Below, in pieces: positions 9,204 to 43,315 of a stretch of DNA of 64,000 nucleotides. Location of the stretch: positions 1,641 to 65,640 of the forward strand of contig CAWHYG010000007.1 of the NCBI GenBank assembly GCA_963833505.1, read 5' to 3'. The stretch comes from Candidatus Eiseniibacteriota bacterium. GTDB taxonomy: Bacteria; Eisenbacteria; RBG-16-71-46; CAIMUX01. The notes under the pieces are model-generated. The model searched no databases. It was not told where the DNA came from and saw only the letters and a list, made by a program, of their open reading frames with translations. How positions within the stretch are numbered: position 1 is the first letter of the stretch; each line of letters opens with the position of its first letter. Made by a program: the position numbers and the translations under genes.

Positions 9204-10733
9204 TCACGGCCGTGAGCGATCAGTGACGTGATTGCGGGGCGCGGCCGAAACCGCTTGTGCCGCCAGTTCGGCGCGCCTTTCCCGACAGGCCGCAGCCTTG
9301 TCCGGTCTACCCGTTGACTTGTACAAGGCGATCATCCAGTCGAGAATCTTGAGCTTGGTCTTCGGCGATTCATCCTTGTCCTCCAGGACCACCAGGGAAT
9401 ACCGCACCAGCAGGGATTCCCCTTCGGCAAAGCGCCTCTCCGCCGACCAACAGGCTCCCAGGGCGCAGGCCGCCTCGGCGGCGTCCAGCGGACTCGAGGG
9501 GACGGCCTTCAGCAGTTCCCGGTCTTCCCGAAGGACCGTATCGGCCTCGCGCAGGTCTCCTTTCTCAGTCAGGAGCATGCCCAGATGCAGCAGCGGATCG
9601 GAGGCCCGGGGATGGCCCATCGGCTGGTTCTTTCGATAGATGCCGATCGCCTCCCGGTAAAGAGCGATGGCTTCGTCGTATCTTCCTTCCGATTCCAACT
9701 CGTGGGCCAGGAAGTCATCGCCGACGGCGACGCTGGGATGATCCGGGCCGTGCGCCTTTCTCTCGATGGCGATCGCCTGGCGGCACATAGACTCCGCTTC
9801 CGCGGTTTCACCCATGTCGGTCAGCAACTGGGTGAAGTTGATCCTGGTGTCTGCAATGTGGGGATCATCGCCGTCGCGGGTTGCGACCTGGGTCGCCAGA
9901 ACATCCCGAAACAGTCTTGCCGCCTGCTCGTTGTCGCCCTTTCGCTCCACGATCATGGCCAGGTTCCCCAGGGGACCGGCGACCCGCGAGCTGTCCGCGC
10001 CCAGGACACGCCGCATCATGGCCACGGACTGGCGGGTGTTGCTTTCGGCGGCCTCGTATTTTCCCTGCAGGTACTGCGCCCAGCCGAGACTCATCAGACA
10101 GCTGGCGACGTAGATGTGCTCGTCGCCGAAGATCCGCCGGCGCATCTCCAACGCGGCGGTTTCGACGGATTCCGCCTTGGCGTATCGGCCGGTCAGGACC
10201 AGGATGCCGGCCTGGGTGTCCATGCTGTTGGCGATGTCCGGATGGTCCCGCCCAAGCAGTCTGCGCCTCAGGGCCAGGGTCGAGTCCTCCAGGCGCCCCG
10301 CCTCCGGCAAGAGCCCCAGGTTCTTCCGGACGCTCGCGAGCAGATTCATGCTGCTGGCCACGTCCACGGTCTCCGGGCCGAGCCGCCGGCGACGGATGCC
10401 GAGGGACAAGGAGACCAGGGAGTCCGCCTCCCGGTAGCGGCCCTGGAAATTCGAGTTGTCGCCCAGGTGGTAGAGGCTGGCGGCGACATCGGCCTGGTCG
10501 GCGCCGAGGCTTTGCTGCCGGATCTTCAGGGCCTCTCGCAGCAGGTGGTCGGCCTTGGCGTAGAAACCGAGGTTCTCGTAAACCTGTCCCATGGTGTCCA
10601 TCAGCTTGGCCCGAACCTCCGGTTGGTCCGCCAGCTCCCGCTCCGCCATCTCGGCGCCGTCATCCAGGATTTCGCGCGCGGTGATTCCGGTGACCAGACG
10701 GCTGTTGGTCGGGTCGGAGATCTCGGGGTTCAT
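9204..10733 (-). CDS. Tetratricopeptide-repeat protein (kinase-less), last gene of the lanthipeptide operon
   Basis: 509 aa of tandem TPR_12-like repeats (…ASSLNNLA…YEEA… pattern). Starts 34 nt after the ECF sigma gene stop, same strand. No kinase or anti-sigma domain is recognisable. Confidence 0.8.
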   Translation of the reverse strand: MNPEISDPTNSRLVTGITAREILDDGAEMAERELADQPEVRAKLMDTMGQVYENLGFYAKADHLLREALKIRQQSLGADQADVAASLYHLGDNSNFQGRYREADSLVSLSLGIRRRRLGPETVDVASSMNLLASVRKNLGLLPEAGRLEDSTLALRRRLLGRDHPDIANSMDTQAGILVLTGRYAKAESVETAALEMRRRIFGDEHIYVASCLMSLGWAQYLQGKYEAAESNTRQSVAMMRRVLGADSSRVAGPLGNLAMIVERKGDNEQAARLFRDVLATQVATRDGDDPHIADTRINFTQLLTDMGETAEAESMCRQAIAIERKAHGPDHPSVAVGDDFLAHELESEGRYDEAIALYREAIGIYRKNQPMGHPRASDPLLHLGMLLTEKGDLREADTVLREDRELLKAVPSSPLDAAEAACALGACWSAERRFAEGESLLVRYSLVVLEDKDESPKTKLKILDWMIALYKSTGRPDKAAACRERRAELAAQAVSAAPRNHVTDRSRP

Positions 10734-10767
10734 TCCTCGGGATCAGCCGGGAGGCCGGACAACGAGC

Positions 10768-11427
10768 TCAAGGCCCCTCCGAATTCGCGCCGGTGGATCC
10801 GGAATGCGTGCCTTCGGAAAGCTCGGCAAACAGCCAGGCCCGGGCAGCACGGGTCTCATTGACCACGGTCGCGGTTGACAGGTTCAGGACGCCGGCCACT
10901 TCCTCGACGCCCAGTCCGCCGAAGAAACGCAGTTCCACGATGCTCGCCTTGCGTGGATCCAGACCCGCCAGTCTGCTCAGGGCCTCGTCCAACTCCAGCA
11001 GATTGTCCGGAGGCTCAAACCCGACCTCCAGGGCCTCGTCCAAGGAGACCTTGCGCAGGCCCCCGCCCCGTTTGGCGTACCGGTGACTCCGGGCGTGATC
11101 GACCAGGATGTGGCGCATGACCTGTGCCGACACGGCAAAGAAGTGGGCCCGGTTTTCCCAACGGGGATCGGTATCGCCCACCATTCTCAGGTAGGCCTCG
11201 TGCACGACCGCGGTTGCCTGGAGCGTGTGGCCAGCGCGCTCCCGCCGCATGTATCGGCCGGCGAGGCGGCGCAGCTCGTCATAGACCAGGGGGAGCAGAT
11301 TCTCCAGAGCCACGGCGTTCCCCTGGCGCCACTGCGAGAGCATCCGGGTCACATCCGTGGGCGGTTCTGTCAATCTCCCTCCCCATCCAGCGCTCACGGA
11401 ACTATAATGCATCCTGAATTGGCGCAT
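10768..11427 (-). CDS. ECF-type RNA polymerase sigma factor (TIGR02999-like subfamily)
   Basis: N-terminus ...DVTRMLSQWRQGNAVALENLLPLVYDELRRLAGRYMRRERAGHTLQATAVVHEAYLRMV... and a C-terminal region-4 HTH (…SIVELRFFGGLGVEEVAGVLNLSTATV…). The true start may be the Met at 11412. It lies 49 nt downstream of the lanT stop on the same strand. Confidence 0.8.
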   Translation of the reverse strand: MRQFRMHYSSVSAGWGGRLTEPPTDVTRMLSQWRQGNAVALENLLPLVYDELRRLAGRYMRRERAGHTLQATAVVHEAYLRMVGDTDPRWENRAHFFAVSAQVMRHILVDHARSHRYAKRGGGLRKVSLDEALEVGFEPPDNLLELDEALSRLAGLDPRKASIVELRFFGGLGVEEVAGVLNLSTATVVNETRAARAWLFAELSEGTHSGSTGANSEGP

Positions 11428-11476: not shown

Positions 11477-13192
11477 TCAGACAGCCCAGGCCCGTCCGAC
11501 GCCGGCCCGGAGCGGGACCTCCGAGTCGGGCTGCGCGAGGCGCTGGTCTCGTTGCTCCCGCACGAGCGACGCGTAGAAGCCCCGGCGGGCGAGCAACTCC
11601 TCGTGCCGGCCGCGCTCGACGATCCGCCCACCCTCGAAGACCAGGATGAGGTCTGCATCGCGGATGGTGCTCAGCCGGTGAGCGACGACGATCCGGGCGT
11701 AACCGATCCGGCTCAGTCCTCGCTCGACGGCTCGCTCGGAGGTCGCGACGAGGTGACTCGTGGCCTCGTCGAGGATCAGCAGGGCCCGGGGCCGCGCGAG
11801 CGCCCGGGCCAGGCAGAGACGCTGCCGCTGCCCGCCTGACAGCCCCGCCCCGCCTTCGGCGACGCGGGTGTCGTAGGCCAGGGGCATGGCCGTGATTTCC
11901 TCGTGAATGGCCGCCAGGCGCGCGGCCCGCTCGATGTCGGCGGGAGACACCTCCGTCTCGTGAAAGGCGATGTTCTCCCGGATGGTGCCGTCGAAGAGAA
12001 AGGTCTCCTGCGGGACGACGCCGAGTTGCCGGCGCAGGGTGCCGAGATCGAGGTCCTCCAGGGGAACGCCGTCGAACGAGATCCTGCCTTCCGTGGGACG
12101 TTCGAGTCCGAGCAGAAGGCGCGCGAGGGTGCTCTTGCCCGACCCGGAGCGGCCGACGAGGGCGATCTTCCGGCCGGGCTCGAGGTCGAATGAGATGTCC
12201 TTGAGGACCATGGGGGAGGCCGGCCCGTAGCGGAAGCCCACCTGCCGGAAGGCCACCCGGCCGGTCAGCTTCATCCGCCGCCGCAGCGCGCTCGCCGCCT
12301 GCTCGGGATCGGACTCGAGCACGTCGGCGAGGCGGGTGAGTTGCGCTCCCAGGAGCTGGAGCCGTTGCGCATTCGCGGCCAGGGCCGCGCCGGGGGCGAG
12401 GGCGGTCACACCGATTCCGGTCATGGCGAAGAGGCTCCCCATGGTCATCCGGCCGGCCGCCACCTGGGCGGCTCCGCACCAGAGAAGCAGCAAGGGTGCG
12501 GAACTCTGCAGTGCGGTGGTCGCGGCGGTGACCCGCGCGGAGACGTCTCCCCTCCGAAGAGCGATGTCCAGATTGCCGCGAAAGGCGCCGGTCCAGCGCG
12601 CGAGCGCGGTCTCCTCGTTCCCCGACGATTTGACGGTCATGATTCCGTGGAGCATTTCCACGAGACGGCTGTCCACCCGGCCCTGGCTGGCGAGGTCGCG
12701 GTGGGTCAGGTTTCGCAGGGTCCCGTTGGATCGCAGCACGACGGCGGCGTTCCCGACCGAGAGCGCTGCCACGATCAGGGCCAGCTTCGGGGCGGCGAAG
12801 ATCAGGATCCCCAGATAGGCGAAGAAGCAGAGCGCGTCGAGGGCCATCTCCAGCATGCCGGCGGAAAGCGTCTCGCGGATGGTCATGTTGCTCGCCACCC
12901 GATGGATGAGGTCTCCGCTCGTGCGTTGCCGAAAGAACCGGTAGGGGAGGCTGAGGAGATGGGCCAGGAATGCCGGCATCATCTCGGCGTCGAGCCGGCC
13001 GCGAAGATGAAGGAGGAGCACCGAGCGGACATAGCCCGCGACCGCCTGCGCCCCCACCAGCAGCAGGCTCCCGGCGGCGACGGTGGTGACCAGGGCCATC
13101 GTGCGGCCGGGGAGGAGCCGGTCCACCAGCAGCTTGGTGAAAAAGGGAACCGCGAGCCCCAGCGCCTGAAGAGCGAGAGATGCGCCGAACAC
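11477..13192 (-). CDS. lanT: Lanthipeptide exporter LanT, ABC transmembrane + ATPase portion (frame continues upstream to ~13300; separated from its C39 domain by a frameshift)
   Basis: TMD region (…[17 protein letters not shown]…) and NBD ([31 protein letters not shown], Walker B/D-loop) follow. The listed start is GTG. The same frame is open upstream (…[26 protein letters not shown]…), which reads as a natural C39-TMD linker. Confidence 0.8.
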
Positions 13193-13289
13193 CTGATAGA
13201 GGAGCGCCCGGCGGGAGAGGATCTGGCGCCCGAGTTGGTCCCGCGCATTCCCCTCCGGCTCCTTCCATTCGATCCCGGTTCGCGAGGCG

Positions 13290-13763
13290 TCACGACGGAA
13301 ACAGAATGGCCACGCCGGTGAAGGCCTCCTCGAACTCAGCCCAGGGGACCGACCGGCGCCCGTCGGCGGGATCGACGAGGTCCACGCGACGCCGGTGGCA
13401 GCGCTCGACCACCACGAAGTGATCGTGCTTCCAGTGGACGATCGCTGGCATCGACAGTTGAGCCAACGCCAATGGCGGCACCTCGTAGGCCGCGCCGCGC
13501 AAACCGAACTCCTCTCCGGCCCGCAGGAGCGTGAGGGCTCGGACTCCGTCCCGATCGGCCCCGCAGGATTCCGCGCAGCGCGCCACGCTGGAGCGAATCC
13601 CGTGGTGCCGGAGCACCATGGCCAGGCACGCGGGTCCGCACTCGTTCATCGTCATCTGGTGCAGGACCGGCACCCTCCGCCGCGACCGCCGCCAACGCGC
13701 CATGGCCGCGCGGGCCGCATAGGTCAACCGTGCCACCGACTCGACCAGGTGAAGAAGGTTCAT
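13290..13763 (-). CDS. lanT: LanT N-terminal C39 bacteriocin-processing peptidase domain (double-glycine leader peptidase)
   Basis: ...[28 protein letters not shown]... is the catalytic Cys motif of C39 peptidases. A good SD (GAGGAG) sits 7 nt before the Met at 13763. It ends in a different frame from the ABC portion, 97 nt upstream of it. Confidence 0.8.
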
Positions 13764-13958: not shown

Positions 13959-16900
13959 TCATGGCCGGCCTTCCGACGAAGCCACGGATCCCTGGATCGG
14001 CGGATCGAAGGCCAGCACCGACGGCACACGGCAGGGAGCGGCCAGGCGCAGAAGGCCGTATCCGATTCCCGCGATCCCCTCCATGAAGCCCGGCGTCTCC
14101 GCGCCGAGCGGGACGCCGCAGACCCAACCCTCGGTCCGGATGTCCGCGACCACCCGCATCGCGCGAGCCCGAAGCTCTTTGCCGGCCGCGGCGGAGTGTC
14201 CGTGGCGGGCGGCCTCGGTCAGACACTCCATGACTCCGAACTGCCCGTGCGCGAGCGAGAGGTCACCCGGAGTTGCGGCGCGCGCGATGGCCATCGCCGC
14301 GTCGAACTGCGCGCTGGTATCGCCGCTCCTCCCTTCTTGGAAGGCACGGAGCAGGGCGAGACCGGTACCGGCGGCGCCCCGATCCCACGAGGGATCGTCC
14401 GGCAGGATGTTGTCGCCTTTCAGGGCCTCGAGCGCCAATCGACGCAATCGCTGGTCGCCGCTCATGCGCCCAAGGCGGACGAGGGCCAGAGCGATCCCCG
14501 CGGGTCCGTACGCCAGCCCCGTCGTCGGCTCGTTCCCGCGCCGCTGCCGCGGCCAGAGGGCGATCCCGCAGTCGCGTTCGGCGAAACGGAGCAGGTGCTG
14601 GCCGCAGACCCGCGCGGCCTCCACGGTCTCGCGGGAAGGCGCCACCTGATGGAGCGCAAGCACGCCGGACAGCAGGCCCGCGGTCCCGTCACAAAGGGAG
14701 AAAAGACGATCGGCCCGGATTCGCGGCGTGTTCGCGGCGACCAGGTCGTGCGCCTCGCGCAGCAGTCCCTCCTCGCCGGTGAGCGCGCCCAGGTGAGCCA
14801 GGGTGTAGATGACGCCTCCCCAGCCTTCGAGGGCGCCGAGCGGAACCGCATCCAGCATCCGGGGGGAGAGATGGTACGTTCCGATGCGCAGGGTGCGCAC
14901 TGCCAGGCGGGCGAGAGCCGAGTCATCGCCGTCGCCGGTGACGTCGGCCAGGAGGGCGAGGAAGAGCGCGATTCCGGCAAGGCCGTCCGAGAGCTGATTG
15001 CCGAGGATCTCCATCGACCAGGCTCCGTGCCGGTGGATGGGACCCGCCCAGCAGATCCCGTCCTCATTGCGGTAAGCGATGTCGGCCAGGCGCCGCGCCG
15101 CCGCCCTCGCACCGGCCAGCAGGGCCGCGGAGTCGAACCTGTCGGCGGACGGTGGCGAAGCGCGTCGCGCTATCGGCAGGGCCGGGGTGGCGTTCATGCG
15201 CAGCGTGGCCAGCGCGGTTTCGATCGCGTACCGGTGCCGCTCGAGGTGGCGCTCGTCGATCTGCTTCGCCTGCAGCAGCACCGTCTCCAGGCTCGGTCGG
15301 TCGAAGATCCCCGGCAGGCGTTCGCCCCCGCTGGTCCAGACGTCGCGGGACGAGGGCCGACCGTGAAAGATCGGAATGTCGCCCGCGATCAAGTCCGAGC
15401 GCTCGAACGGGATCAACGGACAGAGAATCCGGCGCTGCTCCACCTCCAGATCGATCCAGAGGTGGTCGAGCATGCGCTCCCGCTCGAGGGCGTCGCAAAG
15501 GAAGTCGGGGTGGTAGCTGTCCTCGAGCACGATGCCGTAGGTGCGCGTGTCCCGGCTCAGGATCCGGATCTCGTCCTGCGCGAACGCCGTCACCGGCCCG
15601 CCGGCGGCGAAGAACTCGACCTTGAGTCGCGCCAGCAGGGAGAAGGCCTCGGAAAAGCCGGCCACAATCTCTCCGGTGAACTCCTCCACGTTCATCTCCA
15701 CCCCGCCGATCCGCGGCCGATTGTGGCCGCCGGAGGAGGTGGCCACGCTCCGGCGGTCGTAACGGCAATCGTCACGGCCGGCGGCCCGAAGCTCGAGGTT
15801 GAAGTCCGGCGATTCGTCGCCGTCGCGCGCGCCCAGGCCGCTGATGTCGACACCGACGTGGGCGTCGTTGGACCAGACCCGCCGGGGCAGAAGGCCGCTG
15901 CGGAACACCGAAACGAAGTCGTCGCCGTCAGCAAGTCTCTTCCCCTCCATGTCGCGAAGGGCATAGAGCCGCGATTGGAAGAGGCATTCCAGGTCGATGA
16001 AAACCGGCTGGTCGCCCGCGGCGATGAGGTTCTCGGCGTGCATGTCTCCCGCATCGAGGGCGCAGAGCACCGCCATCAATCCACCCACCCGATGGTAGAA
16101 GCGGCCGGCCTCCTGCTGATTCACACAGTCGGCGCGGGTGACGAACTCGGCCCAGCCGTACCCGCCGCGGTCGAGGATCCGTATGGTGCGGAAATCCATC
16201 GGCCCGCGCCGGTTGATCCACTCCAGGACCTCCTGGAAGTGGCAGTCCACCGAAAGCGAGCGCGGCTTGTACACCAGCTTGAGGCCGGAGGAGAACTCCA
16301 GGATCGAGACCGTCCGGCCCCGGCGATGGCTGTCGCCCTGCCCGCTGTCGATCGCGGTCAGGCGCTCCACGGCCTCACCGGACGAGAATTGCTCCACCAG
16401 GAGGCGAAAGTCTTCCGCCAGATGGGAAAGGATCTCGAGATGAAAGTCCATCCACCCGCTGAGCCCGTCCGCGAGCTGCTGAGCCAGGACCGGATATTCG
16501 CGCAGGAGCGCGAGCGCGGTCGCGGGGTGCTGCAGCCGGGCACGGAAGGCCTCGAAACGGTCCTCCGGCGTTTCTCCCGCCAGTTCCCCGCGGAGTCGCG
16601 ATACGTTGAGTTCCAGAACGAGCGTGCGGCCGAGCATCGTCCACAGCCGCCCGACGGGCAGGGTACCGAGCAGGATTTCACGGAGGTTACCGGCCTCAAA
16701 GGGGAGGGGCCCGTGCTGCCGTTCCAGGGCTGAAATCAATCGCGGGAGCGGCTCCAGCAACCGCTCCACGATCGGCCTGATGAGCGACCAGAGCGCCGTG
16801 CCGGCCAGTCCGGGCGGGGCGTCGCCCGAGCCCGCGCTCGGCATTTCGAAGCACCTGCTGATCAACTCGAGCCAGGCCGGCGCGACCTCCGTCCGCTCGC

Positions 16901-17147
16901 GCACCGCCTCGATCGGCTCCCCCAGAATCTGGAGGAAGTCACCGGCGTTCAGACCTTCGAAGGCCAGCCGCTGATCGAAGAGCCGGCCCGGCAGCGGTGA
17001 CTGCGGCGCCCGCCACCAGGCCAGGCGTCTCTCCGCCAGGTCCGGGTCGAAACCTCGCCGGCTGTCGCTCCTGCGAAGAGTCTGCACGCGTTCCTGAAGC
17101 GGCAGGGCCTGGTACCACGAAGCCTGGGAAAGGACGGCGGATTTCAT
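13959..17147 (-). CDS. lanM: Class II lanthipeptide synthetase LanM (N-terminal dehydratase/DUF4135 + C-terminal LanC-like cyclase), 1062 aa
   Basis: Kinase-like dehydratase motif ...DAGDMHAENLIAAGDQPVFIDLE...; LanC-like motifs ...GLAGIALFL..., ...SLAHGQFG..., ...EGWVCGVPLG.... The start at 17147 has [10 protein letters not shown] 7 nt upstream. The long ORF listed from 17600 is upstream read-through across lanA. Confidence 0.9.
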   Translation of the reverse strand: MKSAVLSQASWYQALPLQERVQTLRRSDSRRGFDPDLAERRLAWWRAPQSPLPGRLFDQRLAFEGLNAGDFLQILGEPIEAVRERTEVAPAWLELISRCFEMPSAGSGDAPPGLAGTALWSLIRPIVERLLEPLPRLISALERQHGPLPFEAGNLREILLGTLPVGRLWTMLGRTLVLELNVSRLRGELAGETPEDRFEAFRARLQHPATALALLREYPVLAQQLADGLSGWMDFHLEILSHLAEDFRLLVEQFSSGEAVERLTAIDSGQGDSHRRGRTVSILEFSSGLKLVYKPRSLSVDCHFQEVLEWINRRGPMDFRTIRILDRGGYGWAEFVTRADCVNQQEAGRFYHRVGGLMAVLCALDAGDMHAENLIAAGDQPVFIDLECLFQSRLYALRDMEGKRLADGDDFVSVFRSGLLPRRVWSNDAHVGVDISGLGARDGDESPDFNLELRAAGRDDCRYDRRSVATSSGGHNRPRIGGVEMNVEEFTGEIVAGFSEAFSLLARLKVEFFAAGGPVTAFAQDEIRILSRDTRTYGIVLEDSYHPDFLCDALERERMLDHLWIDLEVEQRRILCPLIPFERSDLIAGDIPIFHGRPSSRDVWTSGGERLPGIFDRPSLETVLLQAKQIDERHLERHRYAIETALATLRMNATPALPIARRASPPSADRFDSAALLAGARAAARRLADIAYRNEDGICWAGPIHRHGAWSMEILGNQLSDGLAGIALFLALLADVTGDGDDSALARLAVRTLRIGTYHLSPRMLDAVPLGALEGWGGVIYTLAHLGALTGEEGLLREAHDLVAANTPRIRADRLFSLCDGTAGLLSGVLALHQVAPSRETVEAARVCGQHLLRFAERDCGIALWPRQRRGNEPTTGLAYGPAGIALALVRLGRMSGDQRLRRLALEALKGDNILPDDPSWDRGAAGTGLALLRAFQEGRSGDTSAQFDAAMAIARAATPGDLSLAHGQFGVMECLTEAARHGHSAAAGKELRARAMRVVADIRTEGWVCGVPLGAETPGFMEGIAGIGYGLLRLAAPCRVPSVLAFDPPIQGSVASSEGRP

Positions 17148-17220: not shown

Positions 17221-17259
17221 AGGCCCGCGAAACCATGAACTCCGAAGCCTCGCGGGCCT
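17221..17259 (-). promoter_or_regulatory. Intergenic stem-loop between lanA and lanM (candidate partial terminator/attenuator or mRNA-stabilising hairpin)
   Basis: Perfect 10-bp GC-rich stem aggcccgcga / tcgcgggcct around a 19-nt loop, in the 131-nt lanA-lanM spacer. Confidence 0.5.
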
Positions 17260-17278: not shown

Positions 17279-17527
17279 TTAGAAGAGCGTGGAACCCGAG
17301 TCTCCCGATCCGCGCGTCGAGACGTACTTGCAGCAGTCGAAATTGCGGCTCCCGAACCAGGTGTGAGGCCGGTAGAGTTCCATGCCGCCCACGATGGGCG
17401 AGAGCTGCTCGTCGGTGAGGCGGGTTCCGCCGGCCGGGTTCTCCGGCAGTTCGGCTCGTTCGGATTCGCTGAGCTGCGCGCGGAAGTGGGCGTCCTTCCA
17501 GGCCTGGATGACTTTGTTCGGCGACAT
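17279..17527 (-). CDS. lanA: Lanthipeptide precursor LanA with mersacidin/lichenicidin-type leader (82 aa)
   Basis: MSPNKVIQAWKDAHFRAQLSESERAELPENPAGGTRLTDEQLSPIVGG|MELYRPHTWFGSRNFDCCKYVSTRGSGDSGSTLF. Compare the mersacidin leader MSQEAIIRSWKDPFSRENSTQNPAGNPFSELKEAQMDKLVGA|GDMEAA. Shared features are WKD..(F/Y)R, NPAG and a VGG/VGA double-glycine-type site. Strong SD AAGGGAG. Located immediately upstream of lanM. Confidence 0.8.
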   Translation of the reverse strand: MSPNKVIQAWKDAHFRAQLSESERAELPENPAGGTRLTDEQLSPIVGGMELYRPHTWFGSRNFDCCKYVSTRGSGDSGSTLF

Positions 17528-17976
17528 TTTCGGTCTCCCTTCGTCTGGACACGGGGCTGCCGTATCCGAGTTCCTGATTCCGGGTCGTTCCCGGCTTCAA
17601 CCTGTAAGGCGGGAAACGGCGGGGCGGGAGATAACGCCATTGGAAGAATGTTCGAGTTCAGGCTGGCCGGGGCCAACCACTTCATCAATTGCACCTTCAC
17701 GGGGAATGTCTCCTACGAGGGAGGAGCCCTCTTCATCTGCGGCACAGGCCCTGGCGGGCCGCAATTTCGCAGTTGCACCTTTGTCCGCAACCGTGGCGCA
17801 GGGCAGCCGGGCGACGGCTGGAGATCACCCCTTCGGCGGGTCGGAGTCGAACATGCGTCTGAGCCTGTCGGTCGATCGTGAGCCGCGGGTGCAGGGCAGG
17901 TTCTCCAGGGCGAGGCTGGCCCGGGACAGGCAGGCCCTTGTGGCCCCAGGGCGCACATCGGCCCTAAGATGAGTGC

Positions 17977-19857
17977 ATGTCGTTCCTGCCCGCACTTCCC
18001 GGCGATCTCGCCGCCCGCGGCCTTGAGCCTGGCGACCTCGACGCCGTCATCGTCACCGGAGACGCCTATGTCGACCATGCGTCCTTCGGCGCCGCGCTCA
18101 TCGGCAGAGTCCTCGAGGCCGCGGGCTACAAGGTCGGGATCATCGCCCGCCCCGACCCCGACGACTCCGCGGCCTTCCGCCTGCTCGGCCGGCCGCGCCT
18201 TGCATTCCTGGTCACGGCCGGAGCCATCGACTCCATGGTCTCGTCCTACACGGCGAACAAGAAGCCCCGCGCCGAGGACGACTATGCCCCCGGGGGCCGG
18301 CCCGGGCTCTGCCTCCGCGGCGACGGTTCCATCGGTCCTGGCCGGCTCCATCGCGTGTGCGCACGCCCGGACCGGGCCCTGATCGCGTATGCGACGAAGT
18401 GTCGAGAAGCCTACAAGGGCGTCGCCATCATCGTGGGGGGGATCGAGGCTTCGCTCCGTCGCCTCTCGCATTACGACTACTGGTCGGATTCGCCGCGGCG
18501 CTCGGTCCTCCTCGACTCCAAAGCGGATCTTCTCGTCTACGGCATGGGGGAGACGGCCATCCTGGAGATCATGCGCCGCCTCTCCGCGGGGGAGGAGGCC
18601 TCCTCGATTCGCGGGGTCCGAGGCACCGTCTGGTGGAGTTCCTCCAAGCCCAGGTGGACCGACCGCTCCTCGATCGACCTACCCGCCTACGAGAAGATCG
18701 CGGCAGGCAATTCCGACCAGTCAGGCGATGGCGCCGCAGGCAAAGCGGCCTTTGCCGACTCATTTCGTCTTCAGTACCGGAACACGGACCCGCATTCGGC
18801 GAATCTCCTCGTCCAGGAGACTTCCGGGCGTTGGGTCGTCCAGGAGCCGCCCGCGTTTCCTCTCCGCGCGGACGAGCTCGATCGGGTCTACGAGCTTCCC
18901 TATGAGCGGGACTGGCATCCCATGTACGCGCCTTACGGGGGCGTTCCCGCCCTCGCCGAGGTGAAATTCTCCCTGGTATCGAGCCGGGGTTGCTTCGGCG
19001 CCTGCTCCTTCTGCTCCCTGACCTTTCACCAGGGACGAGAAGTCTCCGCCCGAAGCCATGCGTCCATCCTCCGCGAGGCCCGGAGCCTTACCCGCCATCC
19101 TGATTTCAAAGGCTTCATCCACGACGTCGGCGGCCCCACCGCCAACTTCCGCCGAAACGCCTGCGAAAAGATGGCGCGCACCGGCGCGTGCGTCGACCGC
19201 CGTTGTCTCGCGCCCACGCCATGCCCGGCCCTCGAACCGGACCACCGCGACTATCTCGGCCTTCTTCGTCAACTCCGGCGCCTGGCCGGCGTCAAGAAGG
19301 TGTTCGTGCGGTCGGGGCTTCGCTTCGACTACCTCATGATTGACGGGGACCAGGAGTTCCTCCGGGAGCTTGTCCAGCACCATGTGTCCGGTCAGCTCAA
19401 GGTGGCCCCCGAGCATGTCTCCCGGAAAGTGCTGGAGCTGATGGGCAAGCCGCCCCGCGAGATCTACGATGCCTTTGCGCAGCGCTATGCGAGCCTGAAT
19501 CTCCAGCTCGGACTTCGCCAGTACCTCGTTCCGTACTTCATCTCGGCCCACCCCGGGGCGGGGATCATCGATGCGATCGAACTCGCAGAACACCTCCGTG
19601 ATACCGGTTTCACACCCGACCACGTCCAGGACTTCTACCCCACACCGGGGATACTCTCGACCGCGATGTACTGGACCGGTCTTGACCCGATCACGGGGAA
19701 AAGGATCCACGTGGCGCGGGGAGCCCGGGAGCGCGCCATGCAACGGGCTCTCCTCCAGTACCGCAAGCCGGAAAACCACGATCTCGTCCGCGAAGCCCTT
19801 CTCCGGGCGGGTCGCCGGGATCTGATCGGGTCGGGGAAGAAGTGCTTGATCCCATGA
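17977..19857 (+). CDS. YgiQ-family (UPF0313) radical SAM protein
   Basis: 626 aa, diverging from lanA. Radical SAM cysteine cluster ...SSRGCFGACSFCSL.... Length and architecture are typical of YgiQ. Confidence 0.8.
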   Translation: MSFLPALPGDLAARGLEPGDLDAVIVTGDAYVDHASFGAALIGRVLEAAGYKVGIIARPDPDDSAAFRLLGRPRLAFLVTAGAIDSMVSSYTANKKPRAEDDYAPGGRPGLCLRGDGSIGPGRLHRVCARPDRALIAYATKCREAYKGVAIIVGGIEASLRRLSHYDYWSDSPRRSVLLDSKADLLVYGMGETAILEIMRRLSAGEEASSIRGVRGTVWWSSSKPRWTDRSSIDLPAYEKIAAGNSDQSGDGAAGKAAFADSFRLQYRNTDPHSANLLVQETSGRWVVQEPPAFPLRADELDRVYELPYERDWHPMYAPYGGVPALAEVKFSLVSSRGCFGACSFCSLTFHQGREVSARSHASILREARSLTRHPDFKGFIHDVGGPTANFRRNACEKMARTGACVDRRCLAPTPCPALEPDHRDYLGLLRQLRRLAGVKKVFVRSGLRFDYLMIDGDQEFLRELVQHHVSGQLKVAPEHVSRKVLELMGKPPREIYDAFAQRYASLNLQLGLRQYLVPYFISAHPGAGIIDAIELAEHLRDTGFTPDHVQDFYPTPGILSTAMYWTGLDPITGKRIHVARGARERAMQRALLQYRKPENHDLVREALLRAGRRDLIGSGKKCLIP

Positions 19858-25808: not shown

Positions 25809-28268
25809 ATGATGAATGACGCCGGCGCCGCGCCGCTCGTGCCCATCGAACCCAACCCGTTCATCGTCGGCAACCCGGTGCGCGACCCGGCCATGTTCTT
25901 CGGGCGCGAGGCCGAGTTCGAACTGATCCGCGGCCGCTTCCAGCAATCCGAGCACGGCGGACTGATCGTGCTCTGCGGCGAGCGGCGCAGCGGCAAGACC
26001 TCGATTCTCTTTCAGGCGGTCTCCGGCCGGCTCGGCCCGGACTTCATTCCGGTGCTCATCGACATGCAGTCGATGGTGATCGCCAATGAAACCGGTTTCC
26101 TGCAGAGGGTGATGGAGGAGATCCTGCTTGCGCTCGGTTCCCGCCGGGCGCAACTCCCTCTTCCGGCTCTCTCCACATCCGTCATGCCCGCGAAAGCCCT
26201 CTATGACTTCGTCGGCGCACTGACCGCGAGCTTCCCTGCATGCAAACTCATCCTCCTCTTTGACGAATACGAGCTCTTTGAAAGCAAGATCGACGCGGGC
26301 ATCCTCACCGAGGACGTCCTCAACGTGCTCGCTGGAATCATGGAGCGATACGGCGTCTTCCTCATCTTCACCGGGTCGCAGGACATTGAGGAACGACGGC
26401 GCCGTTATTGGAGGATCCTACCCAAATCGATCTATCGCAGGATCAGCTATCTGCAACGGACCGACGCCGTCAACCTGATTCAGCAGCCTGTGGCGGGGAG
26501 GGTGGCTTACGATCCGGACGCCATCGAAGCCATCTGCCGGCTGACGGCCGGACAGCCCTTCTACACCCAGTTGATCTGTCAGAATCTGATCGACCATCTG
26601 AACGAGAGGCGAACCAACCGGGCCACTCGGTCTGTCGTCTCCGCCGTGGTCGAGGCGGTGGTGGAAAATCCGCCCCCCCAGATGATCTCGTTGTTTGACA
26701 GCCTCCCGGCGGACGAGAAGCTCGCGCTCGCTCACCTGGCCGAGCGTCTGTCCGGGCCCGACGATCAGCAACCCGCGGTGGCCCTGGCGCGACAGGCCCG
26801 CGGTTCGAAGTACTCCACCAACCTGACTTCGCAGCGGATCGGATCGGCGCTCGAGAGCCTCTTTGGCCGGGAGCTTCTGGACAAGGGGCCGGGGCCGGAT
26901 CCCGGCTACGCCTTCCGCATGGATCTCTGGCGGCTCTGGATCGCCCGGCGCCACTCGGTCTGGCAGGTCGTGCGCGAGATCTCCTCGGGCCGGGACCCGA
27001 ACCTGCGCTCCCCGCATCTGTCCAAGCTCGGAAGAATCGCGGCGGTTCTTCTTGGGGGCGCCGCCCTCCTGGTTCTCGGGTTGCTCAGCTTCCAAAACCG
27101 GCGGGGCATCGCGCCGGCGTTCTCCTCGAGGTCAATGTCTGCGAAGCAGTCTTCCTCAGATACGGGACGGACGGCGCACGTCGCGGCGACCAGGACGCCT
27201 CTGGTCTATGGCCATTGGGTGCGATGGGCTCAAGCCGATTCGGCTTACCCTGCCCGTAGCGGGCAGGGGGTCGTCTACGACCCAGGCGGCCACCGGATGA
27301 TTGCGTTCGGTGGCGGTTTTCAGCGGCGGAAATGGAACGACGATGTGTGGCAGCTCGCGTTGTCCCAACACGGGGTTTGGACGAGGGTTCATCCGCTGGG
27401 AACTCCGCCGACCGCCACCGAGTGCATCTGGCCGGTACAGGATTCCGCCCGGAATCGATTGCTGACCTTTGGCGGGGCGGATCGTTCCGGCGTCCGTCAC
27501 AACGAGACGTGGGCCCTTCTGCTCGACGGACCTCCTCGCTGGGAGCTGCTGAGCCCGGCTGGGCCCTATCCACCCCCGCGCGCGAGCCACGTGGCGGTGC
27601 TCGACCCGCGGCGGTATCGTATGATCGTCTTCGGCGGGTTCGATTGGGCCGCGGACAAGGATGTTATGAACGACGTCTGGTCCTTGTCGTTGGCTGGCGG
27701 TCCCCGGTGGATCCAACTCTCGCCCGCCGGCGATCCGCCCTGGCCGCGCTCCGACTTCGCCGGTGATTACGATCCGGTTCGCGATCAGATCATCTACTTC
27801 GGAGGCAACTACCGGCCGGATGGTTCCTTTCACTTGCAATACACCAACGAGGTCTGGGCGCTTTCCCTTCATGAACCCATCACCTGGACTCAGCTCCATC
27901 CTTCTGGACCGCCGCCGACCCCGCGCAAGGGTCACAACTTCGTCTTTGACGCCGGCAATGACCGGATGATCCTGTTCGGCGGCCAGGACTCGACCGGCTT
28001 CTGTAATGACGTCTGGCAGCTCACCCTCTCCGGAAGTCCGGCCTGGCGACAGCTTGATCCGCACGGGCCGCTTCCCGCCCCTCGTCAGAACGCGGGGATG
28101 ATCTACGATCCGCCGGACAAGGTGATGGTTCTCTCCGGGGGAGAGCTGGATGCCCAACGATTCCATGAAACCTGGGCGTTGACCCTGACCCCGGACCAAC
28201 CTGCGCCTGCCTCTGGCCAGGCGGACACGAGTCGAGCGGACTCCCGAGCGGAGAGAAGACGGCCATGA
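25809..28268 (+). CDS. AAA/STAND-like NTPase - transmembrane - Kelch-repeat beta-propeller protein
   Basis: N-terminus ...FFGREAEFELI...IVLCGERRSGKTSIL (Walker A). Mid-protein TM segment (…IAAVLLGGAALLVLGLL…). C-terminal repeated ...RMI(A/V)FGG...DVW(Q/S)L... Kelch-like blades. Confidence 0.75.
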   Translation: MMNDAGAAPLVPIEPNPFIVGNPVRDPAMFFGREAEFELIRGRFQQSEHGGLIVLCGERRSGKTSILFQAVSGRLGPDFIPVLIDMQSMVIANETGFLQRVMEEILLALGSRRAQLPLPALSTSVMPAKALYDFVGALTASFPACKLILLFDEYELFESKIDAGILTEDVLNVLAGIMERYGVFLIFTGSQDIEERRRRYWRILPKSIYRRISYLQRTDAVNLIQQPVAGRVAYDPDAIEAICRLTAGQPFYTQLICQNLIDHLNERRTNRATRSVVSAVVEAVVENPPPQMISLFDSLPADEKLALAHLAERLSGPDDQQPAVALARQARGSKYSTNLTSQRIGSALESLFGRELLDKGPGPDPGYAFRMDLWRLWIARRHSVWQVVREISSGRDPNLRSPHLSKLGRIAAVLLGGAALLVLGLLSFQNRRGIAPAFSSRSMSAKQSSSDTGRTAHVAATRTPLVYGHWVRWAQADSAYPARSGQGVVYDPGGHRMIAFGGGFQRRKWNDDVWQLALSQHGVWTRVHPLGTPPTATECIWPVQDSARNRLLTFGGADRSGVRHNETWALLLDGPPRWELLSPAGPYPPPRASHVAVLDPRRYRMIVFGGFDWAADKDVMNDVWSLSLAGGPRWIQLSPAGDPPWPRSDFAGDYDPVRDQIIYFGGNYRPDGSFHLQYTNEVWALSLHEPITWTQLHPSGPPPTPRKGHNFVFDAGNDRMILFGGQDSTGFCNDVWQLTLSGSPAWRQLDPHGPLPAPRQNAGMIYDPPDKVMVLSGGELDAQRFHETWALTLTPDQPAPASGQADTSRADSRAERRRP

Positions 28269-37201: not shown

Positions 37202-37454
37202 CTGGCCCGCATTATTGATCCCGCGTCGACGCGCGGCCGGTCCTCCCTGGAACCTCACAAGCCCTCAACGATGCTGTTGATTCAGCCCGGCTCAGTCTTT
37301 CCGGGCTGCGCGGACCGCGCCGAGAGTACGACCAAAGGCCAATGGGGCACGCGGCTCCGACTTGCGAGGATGTCTACAGGGCTGCAAGGGGGCAAGTTGC
37401 CGTCGGGCGCGCGCCCGGAGGTTTCATGCCTCCCCCGGTGCGCCAGGAGGTCTC

Positions 37455-42046: not shown

Positions 42047-43315
42047 TCATAGGATGATTTGCGCCCAGGGGTCATGATCGAGAGAGCACCGTTGGTAGAT
42101 CTTCAGTTTGAAGTACTCGGGATCCCGGAACCCATGAGCGCGGCGGCGTATCTGGCCGATAATGCCGTTGATCGACTCGACCAGCCCCATCTTGATTCCG
42201 TGCTCGAACCCACCCATCAACTTGTCCAGGTTGTCGCGGATACGGTAGCCGATCTTTACCAGCGGCCGCAGCCGGCTGTAGATGGCCATGTGGCACCAGG
42301 TGAGAAGTGCATTGCGGAGCGCTCCCAGACGGACCCACGGGTAGTGGAAGATCCCGCGGAGATTCTCCTTCAAGAGGTAAGCCCGCTCCAGCTGGCGGTT
42401 GCGCGTGAGCAATCGCCCGAGGAGACGTTTGGACGAGAGATCAAGGGCCTCCCGCGCCATGAGCAGCATCCACTTCTTCACCTTGAGGGTTCGTCCGAGA
42501 TCATCCTTCGGTGCGGCCCCGAAAGTCTCGCGCCGGATCTCGTCCACCGCCTCGTTCACCCACTTGATGATGTGGAACCGGTCGAGCAAGTGAATGGCGT
42601 GGGGAACGGCGCGATCAATCGCGTTGCGATAGGCCTGGCTCAGATCACTCACCACCCCGATGATCTTCCGCCGGCCTTTCGGCCCGAGCTCCCGGAAGAA
42701 GGCCAGCAGCGTCTCCTCCTTCTTTCCTTCACCGATCCACACCACCTTGCCCGTTTCCAGGTCCGTCACCACCGTGAAGTAGACATGTCCGCCGGTCCGG
42801 GAGACCTCGTCCACTCCGATCCAGCGCAAGCCGTCCAGAGAGGGAGCGGGCCCTCCCAGCGCCAGCTCGATCGACTCCTTGTCCAACCGCGCCACCGTGT
42901 CCCAGGAAAGCCTCGCCATGCGCGCGACCTCCGAGATCGCCAGGCGACGGCAAAGACCGACGATCAACTCGAAGAAGTGCCGGGTCATCCGGTGGCCGGG
43001 AGACTCCCAGGGCATCCGCTCCACCCGGGTCCCACCGCAACAGAACACGCGCCAAGGCGTGTAGACCACCCAGCTCTCGAAGTCGCCCATCGACCGCTCC
43101 CGCCAGCGCCGCTCCTCCGCCTCCTGGAACGCCAACTCGCGATGGCTTTTCCCACACTCCGGACACTGGTGCCCCTCACGCAAATCTCGAATCCGGATAA
43201 GTTTGATCGGTGGCCGCCCGGCCACGGCCGCCTCCTCGGTCTCGACTTCCACCACCGCAAACCCTTGCAGACCCCAGACGTTTCTGAGAACGTCTCTTTG
43301 CTCCTGGCCACCCAT
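42047..43315 (-). CDS. ISL3-family transposase (copy A)
   Basis: Full-length ISL3-family transposase (DDE_Tnp_ISL3). Zinc-finger-like N-terminus (…CPECGKSH…) and core region ...WIGVDEVSRTGGHVYFTVVTDLETGKVVW.... Probable start MGGQEQRD. Confidence 0.8.
   Translation of the reverse strand: MGGQEQRDVLRNVWGLQGFAVVEVETEEAAVAGRPPIKLIRIRDLREGHQCPECGKSHRELAFQEAEERRWRERSMGDFESWVVYTPWRVFCCGGTRVERMPWESPGHRMTRHFFELIVGLCRRLAISEVARMARLSWDTVARLDKESIELALGGPAPSLDGLRWIGVDEVSRTGGHVYFTVVTDLETGKVVWIGEGKKEETLLAFFRELGPKGRRKIIGVVSDLSQAYRNAIDRAVPHAIHLLDRFHIIKWVNEAVDEIRRETFGAAPKDDLGRTLKVKKWMLLMAREALDLSSKRLLGRLLTRNRQLERAYLLKENLRGIFHYPWVRLGALRNALLTWCHMAIYSRLRPLVKIGYRIRDNLDKLMGGFEHGIKMGLVESINGIIGQIRRRAHGFRDPEYFKLKIYQRCSLDHDPWAQIIL

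What the first reader, a model, noticed from the sequence alone, without database searches (positions are those of the whole stretch)
17279..17527. LanA precursor: mersacidin/lichenicidin-alpha-type leader but an atypical core with a single Cys pair
The leader MSPNKVIQAWKDAHFRAQLSESERAELPENPAGGTRLTDEQLSPIVGG aligns motif-for-motif with MrsA/LicA1 leaders (W-K-D/N-P...R, (H/N)PAG, ..L..I/LVG(G/A)). The predicted core (MELYRPH)TWFGSRNFDCCKYVSTRGSGDSGSTLF has only two adjacent Cys and 8 Ser/Thr. It lacks the CTxTxEC lipid-II-binding ring of mersacidin-like peptides. At most two (Me)Lan rings could form (Thr/Ser at -8/-4 to the DCC pair), leaving a Ser/Thr/Gly-rich tail that could carry several dehydro residues. 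A mersacidin-family leader on an unrelated core suggests leader/core shuffling and a novel product.
Basis: partly seen in the sequence, partly recalled or inferred. Interest (0 to 1): 0.8.

Follow-up and report, generated by a model that had tools for sequence, protein, structure and literature searches.

The report
Lanthipeptide precursor beside a zinc-less LanM
This is a real gene for a small lantibiotic-type precursor peptide next to its modifying enzyme and exporter; its leader and Cys-poor core are fairly ordinary for the family, but the enzyme has lost the zinc site that normally closes the peptide's sulfur rings.

Summary
The ORF exists as described, but on the minus strand (17279..17527, 82 aa, ATG, AGGGAG RBS). 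Its residues 5-48 match TIGR03898, the mersacidin/lichenicidin leader model (63 bits, cutoff 23.5). It sits in a lanA-hairpin-lanM-lanT operon, so it is a genuine class II precursor.

The "mersacidin leader on a foreign core" is not special. The same leader occurs in at least 1102 protein clusters with hypervariable cores, and about 35% of 148 sampled cores have two or fewer Cys. The core itself is rare. Only two relatives were found (90% and 54% identical), both followed by a homologous lanM. They share P-T-x3-SRxFxCCKYxSxR.

The adjacent LanM keeps every invariant dehydratase residue. In its LanC-like domain it has Tyr880/Asp922/Ala966 where 116 of 120 homologues have the catalytic His and the two zinc-ligand Cys. 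That domain has also diverged disproportionately.

The most likely product is therefore a dehydrated peptide. Its thioether rings (two at most) would form without zinc catalysis, or not at all. A metal-independent or rewired cyclase is not excluded, nor is a decaying cluster.

The source is probably a high-GC spirochaete (tentative). Verdict: new variant of a known kind, moderate interest.

The parts
17279..17527 (-). lanA: 82-aa class II lanthipeptide-type precursor (stop codon included)
   Evidence: ORF list and translation. TIGR03898 63.3 bits. Two homologues, each with the same downstream lanM.
17384..17527 (-). Leader, residues 1-48, ending in IVGG (double-glycine cleavage site)
   Evidence: TIGR03898 aligns to residues 5-48 over model positions 1-44/44. 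A leader HMM built from 147 family members scores 85 bits, and this is the only such ORF in the window. Leader dN/dS is about 0.2 against L001.
17282..17383 (-). Predicted core, residues 49-82: MELYRPHTWFGSRNFDCCKYVSTRGSGDSGSTLF. Residues invariant in all 3 known members: P54 T56 S60 R61 F63 C65 C66 K67 Y68 S70 R72.
   Evidence: Alignment A2; codon coordinates.
17330..17335 (-). The only two Cys codons (C65, C66; TGC TGC), invariant in the three homologues
17535..17540 (-). Shine-Dalgarno AGGGAG, 7 nt before the ATG
17221..17259 (-). 14-bp GC-rich stem-loop between lanA and lanM; probable attenuator or transcript-stabilising hairpin
   Evidence: Fold of -28 kcal/mol, z = -2.2. Equivalent hairpins follow lanA in L001 and L002 (z = -2.2 and -2.6). 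The function is inferred.
13959..17147 (-). lanM: 1062-aa class II lanthipeptide synthetase homologue with its own GGGAGG RBS
   Evidence: TIGR03897 718 bits. Pfam DUF4135 plus LANC_like. Identical protein in an independent Logan assembly. AF2 model pLDDT 85.7; best PDB folds are LicM2 and CylM.
15363..16496 (-). DUF4135 dehydratase domain (residues 218-595). All invariant catalytic-region residues are present: D272 K294 D368 H370 N373 D385 E387 R528 R532 T534.
   Evidence: column counts over 119 homologues.
14013..15008 (-). LanC-like domain (residues 714-1045). The fold and GxxG repeats are retained, but active-site residues are replaced.
   Evidence: 34 of 116 highly conserved columns are mismatched. 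Cyclase/dehydratase identity ratio is 0.85 against 1.03+-0.06 for other pairs. HMM score ratio is 0.52 against 0.79+-0.025.
14508..14510 (-). Tyr880 (TAC) at the position of the catalytic His (His in 116/120 homologues; 'SHG' motif in LicM2)
   Evidence: The equivalence of this His across NisC H212, CylM H835 and LanCL1 H219 is stated in PMC9934072.
14382..14384 (-). Asp922 (GAT) at the position of the first zinc-ligand Cys (W-C motif; CylM C875)
14250..14252 (-). Ala966 (GCG) at the position of the second zinc-ligand Cys (C-H-G motif; CylM C911). The neighbouring His967 is retained.
11477..13763 (-). lanT: C39 peptidase + ABC membrane + ATPase exporter. In the window it is split into two frames by one extra base at 13303.
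   Evidence: Pfam on the two ORFs; frames. The Logan contig L003 is 99.95% identical and lacks the extra T. Removing it gives one 761-aa ORF.
10768..11427 (-). ECF sigma factor (TIGR02999 type) 50 nt downstream of lanT on the same strand; possible regulator. Association is inferred from position only.
9204..10733 (-). TPR protein downstream of the ECF sigma on the same strand. Association is uncertain.

Best explanation
The ORF is a genuine, functional class II (LanM-type) RiPP precursor.

Shown:
- It has a TIGR03898 leader ending in GG.
- It has a rare core with an invariant vicinal Cys pair and invariant Thr56, Ser60 and Ser70.
- lanM lies immediately downstream, and a C39-ABC lanT follows it.
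- The LanM has an intact dehydratase domain. Its LanC-like domain has lost the catalytic His (to Tyr880) and both zinc-ligand Cys (to Asp922 and Ala966).

Inferred mechanism:
1. The leader docks on LanM.
2. The DUF4135 domain phosphorylates and eliminates Ser/Thr of the core to Dha/Dhb.
3. LanM cannot activate Cys thiols through a Cys2His zinc site. The product is therefore mainly a dehydrated peptide.
4. Its two Cys either stay free or oxidised, or add spontaneously to nearby Dha60, Dhb56 or Dha70, giving two rings at most.
5. The cyclase-like domain is kept as a structural or substrate-binding module.
6. LanT cleaves after Gly48 and exports the 34-aa product. The variable N-terminal heptapeptide may be trimmed later.
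For: - LanA identity.
- Operon.
- lanA-lanM synteny in two other lineages, with LanM N-terminus dN/dS about 0.26 and leader about 0.2.
- All ten invariant dehydratase-region residues are retained.
- Y880/D922/A966 where 116/120 homologues have H/C/C. The mapping to LicM2 and CylM zinc ligands comes from pairwise HMMER alignments.
- These changes need several nucleotide substitutions, and an independent assembly gives the identical protein.
- The cyclase domain diverged disproportionately. The identity ratio is the lowest of 119 sequences, and the HMM score ratio is more than 10 SD below the others.
- The fold is retained.
- No other LanC-like domain exists in the 64 kb.
- Literature. LctM zinc-ligand mutants keep dehydration but lose most cyclisation (as cited in PMC11356792; title in PMC9934072). 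CcaM/LanMbC has a zinc-less cyclase domain that is required for dehydration, and its product has no lanthionine (PMC10676384).
Against: - The CC pair and the upstream Thr/Ser are invariant across the three homologues. That pattern is what one expects if thioethers are still made.
- Class III enzymes cyclise without zinc (PMC10604976).
- Lineage-specific Cys819/Asp820 and Cys975 appear near the lost residues and could form a substitute site.
- The C-terminal halves of the LanMs in the two related lineages are unknown, so I cannot say whether the loss is old and maintained or recent.
- lanT is frameshifted in this assembly.
- A stand-alone LanC elsewhere in the genome is not excluded.
Confidence: 0.45

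Rival explanations
1. The system is functional and still makes a true lanthipeptide. The LanC-like domain would catalyse addition of Cys65/Cys66 to Dhb56/Dha60 (or Dha70) without the canonical zinc site. It would do so either metal-independently, as class III LanKC enzymes do, or through a rewired ligand set (for example Asp922, His967, Cys819, Asp820).
For: The Cys-Cys pair and Thr56/Ser60/Ser70 are invariant in all three core homologues, although only 54% of the third peptide is conserved. The cyclase domain is a full-length, confidently folded toroid with retained GxxG repeats rather than a truncated remnant. There is precedent for zinc-free cyclisation: ThurKC has its ligands replaced by Ser/Phe/Asp (PMC10604976). 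Cys819/Asp820/Cys975 are lineage-specific, where homologues have Ile/Gly/Leu. The 'D-Unk' synthetase type has been catalogued with 47 predicted peptides (PMC11251773).
Against: The domain is class II in sequence and fold, not class III. In class II enzymes, mutation of these ligands impairs cyclisation (cited). The catalytic His is also gone, as is the nearly invariant Asp817. The domain shows accelerated divergence, consistent with relaxed constraint.
Confidence: 0.3
2. The cluster is a decaying remnant. The cyclase active site is dead, the exporter is frameshifted, and no mature product is made.
For: lanT is split by a 1-bp insertion in this assembly. Cyclase catalytic residues are lost. IS transposases lie 5-15 kb away. 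No lanM sits next to ygiQ in the nearest relatives, which suggests a sporadic island. The core dN/dS is about 1 against L001, based on only 9 substitutions.
Against: lanA, lanM (1062 codons) and their RBSs are intact. Every invariant dehydratase residue is kept. LanM N-terminus dN/dS is about 0.26 and leader about 0.2. The lanA-hairpin-lanM unit is conserved in lineages down to about 65% DNA identity. The lanT frameshift is absent from an independent 99.95%-identical assembly, so it is probably an assembly error or a minor variant.
Confidence: 0.15
3. A canonical LanM dehydrates the core and closes two (Me)Lan rings by the usual zinc-dependent route, and the unusual leader/core pairing results from a shuffling event.
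For: Leader family and operon layout. Thr56/Ser60 lie upstream of the Cys pair.
Against: The zinc ligands and catalytic His are absent from this LanM. Hypervariable cores, including 35% with two or fewer Cys, are the norm behind this leader.
Confidence: 0.05
4. The ORF is not a RiPP precursor but a chance ORF or a conserved small protein of other function.
For: No Pfam family hit.
Against: TIGR03898 E = 1.4e-17. Good RBS. The ORF is conserved with a downstream LanM in three loci. All 1102 relatives are LanA-like small peptides, apart from one spurious repeat protein.
Confidence: 0.02

Closest known systems
Mersacidin (MrsA/MrsM/MrsT), lichenicidin alpha and haloduracin alpha precursors (TIGR03898 leader family)
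   Same: The leader architecture is the same (WKD...R, xP[AV]G, ...L..VGG) and scores well above the family cutoff. The precursor is processed by a LanM, with a C39-ABC LanT and double-Gly cleavage. A short variable stretch after GG may be trimmed in a second step, as in mersacidin (by analogy only).
   Different: The core has no TxTxEC lipid-II ring, only two Cys, and no sequence similarity to these cores. There is no LanD/MrsD. The LanM lacks the Cys-Cys-His zinc site. The source is probably a high-GC spirochaete, not Bacillus.
Prochlorosin/ProcM-type systems and other 'one leader, many cores' class II families (including actinopeptins, PMC13509491)
   Same: A conserved leader is coupled to hypervariable cores. 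That pattern explains the leader/core mismatch without any special shuffling event.
   Different: Prochlorosins use NHLP/Nif11 leaders and a CCC zinc site. Here there is a single precursor, a single LanM and no zinc ligands. The window peptide does not hit Pfam DUF6229, the actinopeptin domain.
LanMbC / CcaM of the dehydrazoles (PMC10676384)
   Same: A DUF4135 dehydratase is fused to a cyclase-like domain without zinc ligands. In that system the cyclase-like domain is needed for dehydration, and the product carries dehydro residues but no lanthionine. It is a working model for a dehydratase-only LanM.
   Different: CcaM partners a YcaO, acts only on azole-containing cores, and is leader-independent. 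Its domain is described as class III-type. Here no YcaO was found. The leader is a classical class II one. The enzyme is a full-length TIGR03897 match whose nearest relatives are canonical H/C/C/H LanMs.
'D-Unk' synthetases (DUF4135 + cyclase without a defined triad; PMC11251773) and the Pseudanabaena galeata LanM-like/N11P pair (PMC11356792)
   Same: This is the same bioinformatic category: a class II-type dehydratase with a cyclase domain that lacks the zinc triad, uncharacterised biochemically.
   Different: The P. galeata precursor has no Cys and a Nif11 leader. Here the core keeps an invariant Cys-Cys pair and the leader is mersacidin-type.
Class III LanKC (for example ThurKC, PMC10604976)
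   Same: A LanC-fold domain without zinc ligands still cyclises, so loss of zinc does not by itself prove loss of ring formation.
   Different: The dehydration machinery is different (kinase plus lyase). The leader type and the Ser-xx-Ser-xxx-Cys labionin motif are absent here.

Membership tests
TIGR03898 mersacidin/lichenicidin-family type 2 lantibiotic precursor (leader family) | HMM score above the curated cutoff across the whole leader model | tested here: met
   63.3 bits against a cutoff of 23.5; residues 5-48 align to model positions 1-44/44.
TIGR03898 mersacidin/lichenicidin-family type 2 lantibiotic precursor (leader family) | Double-Gly-type cleavage site at the leader end and a C39-peptidase exporter in the cluster | tested here: met
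   IVGG at residues 45-48. PF03412 C39 domain with the Cys (NECGPAC) and His (HWKHDHF) motifs, fused to ABC domains once the 1-bp insertion is removed.
TIGR03898 mersacidin/lichenicidin-family type 2 lantibiotic precursor (leader family) | Encoded next to a LanM | tested here: met
   lanM starts 131 nt downstream. The same arrangement is seen in L001 and L002.
Mersacidin-like lipid-II-binding lantibiotics (product family) | TxTxEC / CTxTxEC ring motif in the core | tested here: not met
   The motif is absent from the 34-aa core. The motif definition is from PMC7268733.
Class II lanthipeptide synthetase LanM (D-CCH) | DUF4135 dehydratase domain with its invariant catalytic-region residues | tested here: met
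   PF13575, 378 bits. D272 K294 D368 H370 N373 D385 E387 R528 R532 T534 are all present.
Class II lanthipeptide synthetase LanM (D-CCH) | C-terminal LanC-like alpha/alpha-toroid domain | tested here: met
   PF05147, 117 bits. The AF2 model has LicM2 and CylM as top PDB hits (TM 0.75 and 0.72) and matches LanCL and NisC on this domain.
Class II lanthipeptide synthetase LanM (D-CCH) | Zinc triad Cys-Cys-His plus the catalytic His in the cyclase domain | tested here: not met
   Y880/D922/A966/H967 where 116/120 homologues have H/C/C/H. Direct alignments to LicM2 and CylM agree.
Class II lanthipeptide synthetase LanM (D-CCH) | Dehydration and cyclisation activity on the cognate LanA | not testable with these tools
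   Needs co-expression or in vitro assay with MS.
Lanthipeptide (product definition) | At least one (methyl)lanthionine thioether in the mature peptide | not testable with these tools
   The core has the needed Ser/Thr and two Cys, but the cyclase site is degenerate. Only MS/MS or NMR can decide.
LanMbC (CcaM-type dehydrazole dehydratase) | Co-occurrence with a YcaO cyclodehydratase, and a class III-type cyclase domain | tested here: not met
   No YcaO was found among the annotated ORFs of the window. The enzyme matches the class II model over its full length, and the class II structures are its best folds.

The most novel reading that the evidence does not exclude
A LanM that descends from the canonical Cys-Cys-His clade has abandoned its zinc site (H880Y, C922D, C966A, D817S) and gained lineage-specific Cys819/Asp820. 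It nevertheless still installs cross-links on an invariant vicinal Cys-Cys pair. That would be either zinc-independent or rewired-site lanthionine formation within class II, or a different Cys chemistry on a dehydrated scaffold. It would yield a new peptide scaffold from a phylum (Spirochaetota) for which I found no lanthipeptide reports in the searched literature.
Probability: 0.2. Interest if true: 0.8.

Novelty: new variant of a known kind. Interest (0 to 1): 0.5.

Why it matters
If the LanM is active, this pair is a compact natural test case with one precursor, one enzyme and only two Cys. It addresses a standing question in lanthipeptide enzymology: what a LanC-fold domain does once its zinc site is gone. 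The options are a scaffold for dehydration only (as in CcaM), metal-free cyclisation (as in class III), or nothing. Zinc-less DUF4135 synthetases ('D-Unk') have been counted bioinformatically but hardly studied. This one has a classical, well-understood leader, which makes heterologous reconstitution straightforward. The core family (P-T-x3-SRxFxCCKYxSxR) has no characterised member, so the product would be a new scaffold. For the original claim, the practical lesson is that a mersacidin-type leader on an unrelated core is the rule in this family, not a sign of novelty.

Tried and rejected
- Close relatives of the LanM in 185,579 species genomes: none. In plasmids: none.
- More core homologues. 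Word-indexed searches with the peptide and with a 3-sequence profile returned only P0001 and P0002. A degenerate DNA pattern for T-x3-SRxFxCCKY[VIL]SxR in JGI metagenomes returned only the already known contig plus one chance hit inside an unrelated gene.
- Exact look-up of the window's LanA contig: not on record. Cluster-member names gave no organism.
- Hypothesis that zinc-less LanMs go with Cys-free cores. The contexts of the two other zinc-less LanMs were uninformative, with no DNA for P0238 and a contig starting at lanM for P0242. The LanM next to a Cys-free Ser-rich precursor (P0011, L089) has an intact H/C/C/H site. No simple correlation was found, so the hypothesis was dropped.
- P0154, the closest full-length LanM at 41% identity, has Arg for the catalytic His but keeps both Cys, and its LanA has five Cys. 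It is not a parallel case.
- Second precursor or stand-alone LanC in the window: none, by custom HMMs on all six frames and by a regex scan.
- Sigma-70 promoter and intrinsic-terminator consensus scan around lanA: nothing.
- Rfam and tRNA scans of the window: nothing.
- ECF-type GGAAC-N16-CGT motif 24 nt upstream of lanA. It is present but low in information: 11 matches in the window against 5.2 expected. It is kept only as a lead.
- Synteny with the nearest ygiQ-bearing genomes: none, and no lanM there.
- The LctM zinc-ligand paper (PMC2517114) was not available, so it is cited second-hand.
Full report
OBSERVATION

The reported interval holds an 82-codon ORF on the minus strand (17279..17527). 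It has an ATG start and an AGGGAG ribosome-binding site 7 nt upstream. After the IVGG at residues 45-48 comes a 34-residue tail, MELYRPHTWFGSRNFDCCKYVSTRGSGDSGSTLF. It has two adjacent Cys, eight Ser/Thr and no TxTxEC motif. NCBIfam TIGR03898 is a 44-position model of the mersacidin/lichenicidin leader. It aligns end to end with residues 5-48 at 63.3 bits (cutoff 23.5, E = 1.4e-17).

SURROUNDINGS (all on the minus strand)

- A 14-bp GC-rich hairpin lies at 17221..17259.
- A 1062-aa LanM is at 13959..17147 (TIGR03897 718 bits; Pfam DUF4135 plus LANC_like).
- A LanT exporter follows at 11477..13763. Its C39 peptidase part and its ABC membrane/ATPase part sit in different frames.
- An ECF sigma factor is at 10768..11427 and a TPR protein at 9204..10733.
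- Upstream and divergent are housekeeping-type genes: a YgiQ radical-SAM protein and an RlmL-like methyltransferase.

An independent short-read assembly (Logan contig L003) is 99.95% identical over 5.5 kb and encodes the same LanM. It lacks a single T that the window has at position 13303. Without that base, LanT is one intact 761-aa C39-TMD-NBD protein. The frameshift is therefore probably an assembly error or a minor variant. Custom HMMs run over all six frames find no second leader-bearing ORF and no other LanC-like domain in the 64 kb. No YcaO, LanD or LanJ-type gene turned up among the annotated ORFs.

HOW UNUSUAL IS THE PRECURSOR?

An exhaustive phmmer search of 1.84 billion representative proteins found 1102 clusters at E<=1e-3. 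Reading the best 150 shows the same leader (IIRAWKD.EYR.SLSE.ERA.LPENPAG.IELTD.EL..V.GG) followed by cores with no detectable similarity to one another. With an approximate regex cut at the GG site, 148 cores have 0 Cys (12), 1 Cys (15), 2 Cys (25) or 3 or more Cys (96). A two-Cys core behind this leader is therefore common, and leader/core "shuffling" is the general condition of the family. A 2026 survey makes the same point: a shared xP[AV]Gx leader motif across mersacidin, actagardine, haloduracin, lichenicidin and actinopeptin groups, with highly variable cores (PMC13509491).

The specific core is what is rare. Only two relatives share it:
- P0001: 90% identical, on 1-kb metagenome contigs L001/L004.
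- P0002: 54% identical, on L002.

These were the only relatives among about 15 billion proteins. A degenerate DNA-motif scan of the JGI metagenomes added nothing new. All three share P54, T56, S60, R61, F63, C65, C66, K67, Y68, S70 and R72. In both relatives the next gene is a homologue of the window's LanM (87% and about 65% DNA identity), preceded by an equivalent hairpin. Against L001, dN/dS is about 0.2 for the leader, about 1 for the core (nine substitutions in all, clustered at residues 50-52) and about 0.26 for the LanM N-terminus. That is the usual RiPP pattern of a constrained leader and enzyme with a fast-evolving core.

THE LANM

This is where the locus departs from the textbook. 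HMMER alignments to the solved class II enzymes LicM2 (6ST5) and CylM (5DZT) give these replacements:

| Motif in solved enzymes | Role | Window LanM |
|---|---|---|
| LicM2 'FSHG' | catalytic His (NisC H212 / CylM H835, PMC9934072) | 'LAYG' (Tyr880) |
| 'WCHG' / 'WCKG' | first zinc ligand, CylM C875 | 'WDRG' (Asp922) |
| 'LCHG' | zinc ligands, CylM C911/H912 | 'LAHG' (Ala966, His967) |

In a MAFFT alignment of the 120 best LanM homologues, these four columns read H/C/C/H in 116 sequences. The window's enzyme is the only one with Y/D/A/H. Other nearly invariant cyclase residues are also replaced: Y720S, W790T, D817S, C825L, H963L, D969Q and N972V. In contrast, ten invariant or nearly invariant residues of the dehydratase region are all present: D272, K294, D368, H370, N373, D385, E387, R528, R532 and T534.

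The cyclase domain has diverged disproportionately:
- The ratio of cyclase to dehydratase identity is 0.85, against 1.03+-0.06 for other LanM pairs. It is the lowest of 119 sequences.
- The ratio of domain HMM scores is 0.52, against 0.79+-0.025. The other sequences were in the training set, which inflates their scores somewhat.

The replacements need several nucleotide changes (TAC, GAT, GCG) and are identical in the independent assembly, so they are not sequencing noise. The domain is not falling apart. The ORF is intact and the GxxG repeats are kept. An AlphaFold2 model (pLDDT 85.7, pTM 0.86) has LicM2 and CylM as best PDB matches (TM 0.75 and 0.72), and its C-terminal part matches LanCL1/2, NisC and MadC. 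The closest full-length homologues are only 38-42% identical and come from Pyrinomonadaceae, cyanobacteria and Archangium. This LanM therefore sits on a long branch within canonical class II.

MECHANISM

Shown:
- a leader of a family known to be processed by LanM enzymes;
- an apparently competent dehydratase;
- a double-Gly site and a C39 exporter;
- a LanC-fold domain without its catalytic His and without two of its three zinc ligands.

Inferred:
1. LanM binds the leader and dehydrates some of the eight Ser/Thr. The three invariant ones, T56, S60 and S70, are the best candidates.
2. Zinc-assisted thiolate activation is not available.
3. LanT cuts after G48 and exports the peptide.

Three outcomes remain for the two Cys.

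(a) No enzymatic cyclisation. The product would be a dehydropeptide with free, oxidised or spontaneously added Cys. This fits the report that LctM zinc-ligand mutants dehydrate but cyclise poorly (cited in PMC11356792). It also fits CcaM, whose zinc-less cyclase domain is needed for dehydration but makes no lanthionine (PMC10676384).

(b) Metal-independent or rewired catalysis. Class III ThurKC shows that this is possible (PMC10604976). The invariant CC pair with upstream Thr/Ser argues for it, as do the lineage-specific Cys819/Asp820/Cys975.

(c) A relic cluster.

I rate these at 0.45, 0.30 and 0.15.

COMPARISON WITH WHAT IS KNOWN

The peptide belongs to the TIGR03898 leader family. It is not a mersacidin-like lantibiotic, because it has no lipid-II motif. 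The enzyme has the architecture of LanM but fails the zinc-triad criterion. It falls in the 'D-Unk' category (DUF4135 plus a cyclase without a triad). That category has been counted bioinformatically, with 47 associated predicted peptides, but hardly characterised (PMC11251773). A comparable observation was made for a Pseudanabaena LanM-like enzyme with a Cys-free Nif11-type precursor (PMC11356792). The window's enzyme differs from CcaM/LanMbC in four ways: no YcaO, a classical leader, a class II-type domain, and nearest relatives that are canonical LanMs. I tested whether Cys-free cores behind the same leader go with zinc-less LanMs. The one locus I could read (L089) has an intact H/C/C/H site, so there is no simple rule.

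SOURCE ORGANISM

The exact LanM is on record from a 2.45-Mb NCBI/ENA contig without a name. No housekeeping protein of the window has a relative at 90% identity or more that carries an organism name. The neighbouring YgiQ protein finds its best matches (62-74% identity) only in MAGs labelled Spirochaetaceae, Rectinemataceae or Treponemataceae. Many of these have 63-71% G+C, like the window at about 65%. Firmicutes follow at 52-57%. None of those relatives has a lanM near ygiQ. An older survey of anaerobes found only LAP-type RiPP clusters in Spirochaetes (PMC4289311).

VERDICT

- It misses the main point, the zinc-less cyclase domain of the partner LanM.
- Novelty: new variant of a known kind.
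- Interest: moderate (0.5). It would rise to about 0.8 if the enzyme proves to cross-link the Cys pair without the canonical zinc site.

Noticed in passing
window 13303 (within lanT, 11477..13763, minus strand): A single extra T (minus strand) splits the C39-ABC exporter into two frames. A 99.95%-identical Logan contig (L003) lacks it and encodes an intact 761-aa LanT. This is likely an assembly error or a population variant.
   Followed up: yes
window 17221..17259 (-); L001 ~477-513; L002 ~669-716: A strong stem-loop directly after lanA is present in all three loci (z = -2.2 to -2.6), although the loop sequences differ. It is probably an attenuator or stabiliser that sets the lanA:lanM ratio.
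   Followed up: partly
window 14688..14693 and 14223..14225 (LanM Cys819/Asp820, Cys975): These are lineage-specific Cys/Asp residues at positions where 119 homologues have Ile/Gly/Leu. They lie close in sequence to the lost Asp817 and Cys966. They could be parts of a rewired metal site or mere drift.
   Followed up: partly
P0006, P0011, P0013, P0090, P0144; locus L089 4247-4621 and neighbours: The same mersacidin-type leader also precedes long, Cys-free, Ser/Arg-rich repetitive cores (for example SxSRSxS repeats). In L089 the gene order is acyltransferase - LanT - LanA - LanM (zinc site intact) - M20 peptidase. This may be a lanthionine-free product class made by a canonical LanM.
   Followed up: partly
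P0119, P0098 (leader-family hits): P0119 carries two tandem copies of the leader in one 135-aa ORF. P0098 has a His/Gly-rich core (GHHGHGHH...) ending in a single Cys.
   Followed up: no
P0238 and P0242 (LanM homologues): Two other LanMs among the 120 closest also lack both zinc-ligand Cys (R/A/G/H and H/S/S/H). Their precursors could not be read: no DNA was available for one, and the contig of the other starts at lanM.
   Followed up: partly
window 17551..17574 (-): A GGAAC-N16-CGT motif (ECF-sigma-like -35/-10) lies 24 nt upstream of the lanA ATG, and an ECF sigma gene lies downstream in the same operon direction. L001 has GGAAC-N16-CGCGTC at the same place. The motif is low in information: 11 matches in the window against 5.2 expected.
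   Followed up: partly
window 9204..11427 (-): An ECF sigma factor (TIGR02999 type) and a 509-aa TPR protein follow lanT on the same strand with short gaps. They may be cluster regulators.
   Followed up: no
window 679-978 and 2367-2666; 1785..3287 (-); 5283..6485 (+); 42047..43405 (-) and 43402..44646 (-): Mobile-element load: a 300-nt exact direct repeat, a DDE_Tnp_1_4 transposase, a Mutator-family transposase (five near-identical copies on record) and two tandem ISL3 transposases. These are consistent with a plastic region around the cluster.
   Followed up: partly
window 17977..19857 (+) and loci L006-L028: The best relatives of YgiQ are high-GC MAGs labelled Spirochaetaceae, Rectinemataceae or Treponemataceae (62-74% identity). 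No gene order is shared with the window and no lanM lies nearby. The lanthipeptide cluster looks like a sporadic island in a probably spirochaetal genome.
   Followed up: partly
window 58457..61165 (+); 39482..41947 (+); 37362..39083 (+); 52102..55332 (+); 25809..28268 (+): Other genes seen while annotating: a bifunctional aspartate kinase/diaminopimelate decarboxylase (990 bits), a CheB-CheR fusion, a B12-binding radical SAM protein (DUF4070), a 1076-aa FG-GAP repeat protein with a FlgD-Ig C-terminus, and an AAA+Kelch protein next to a Ser/Thr kinase.
   Followed up: no
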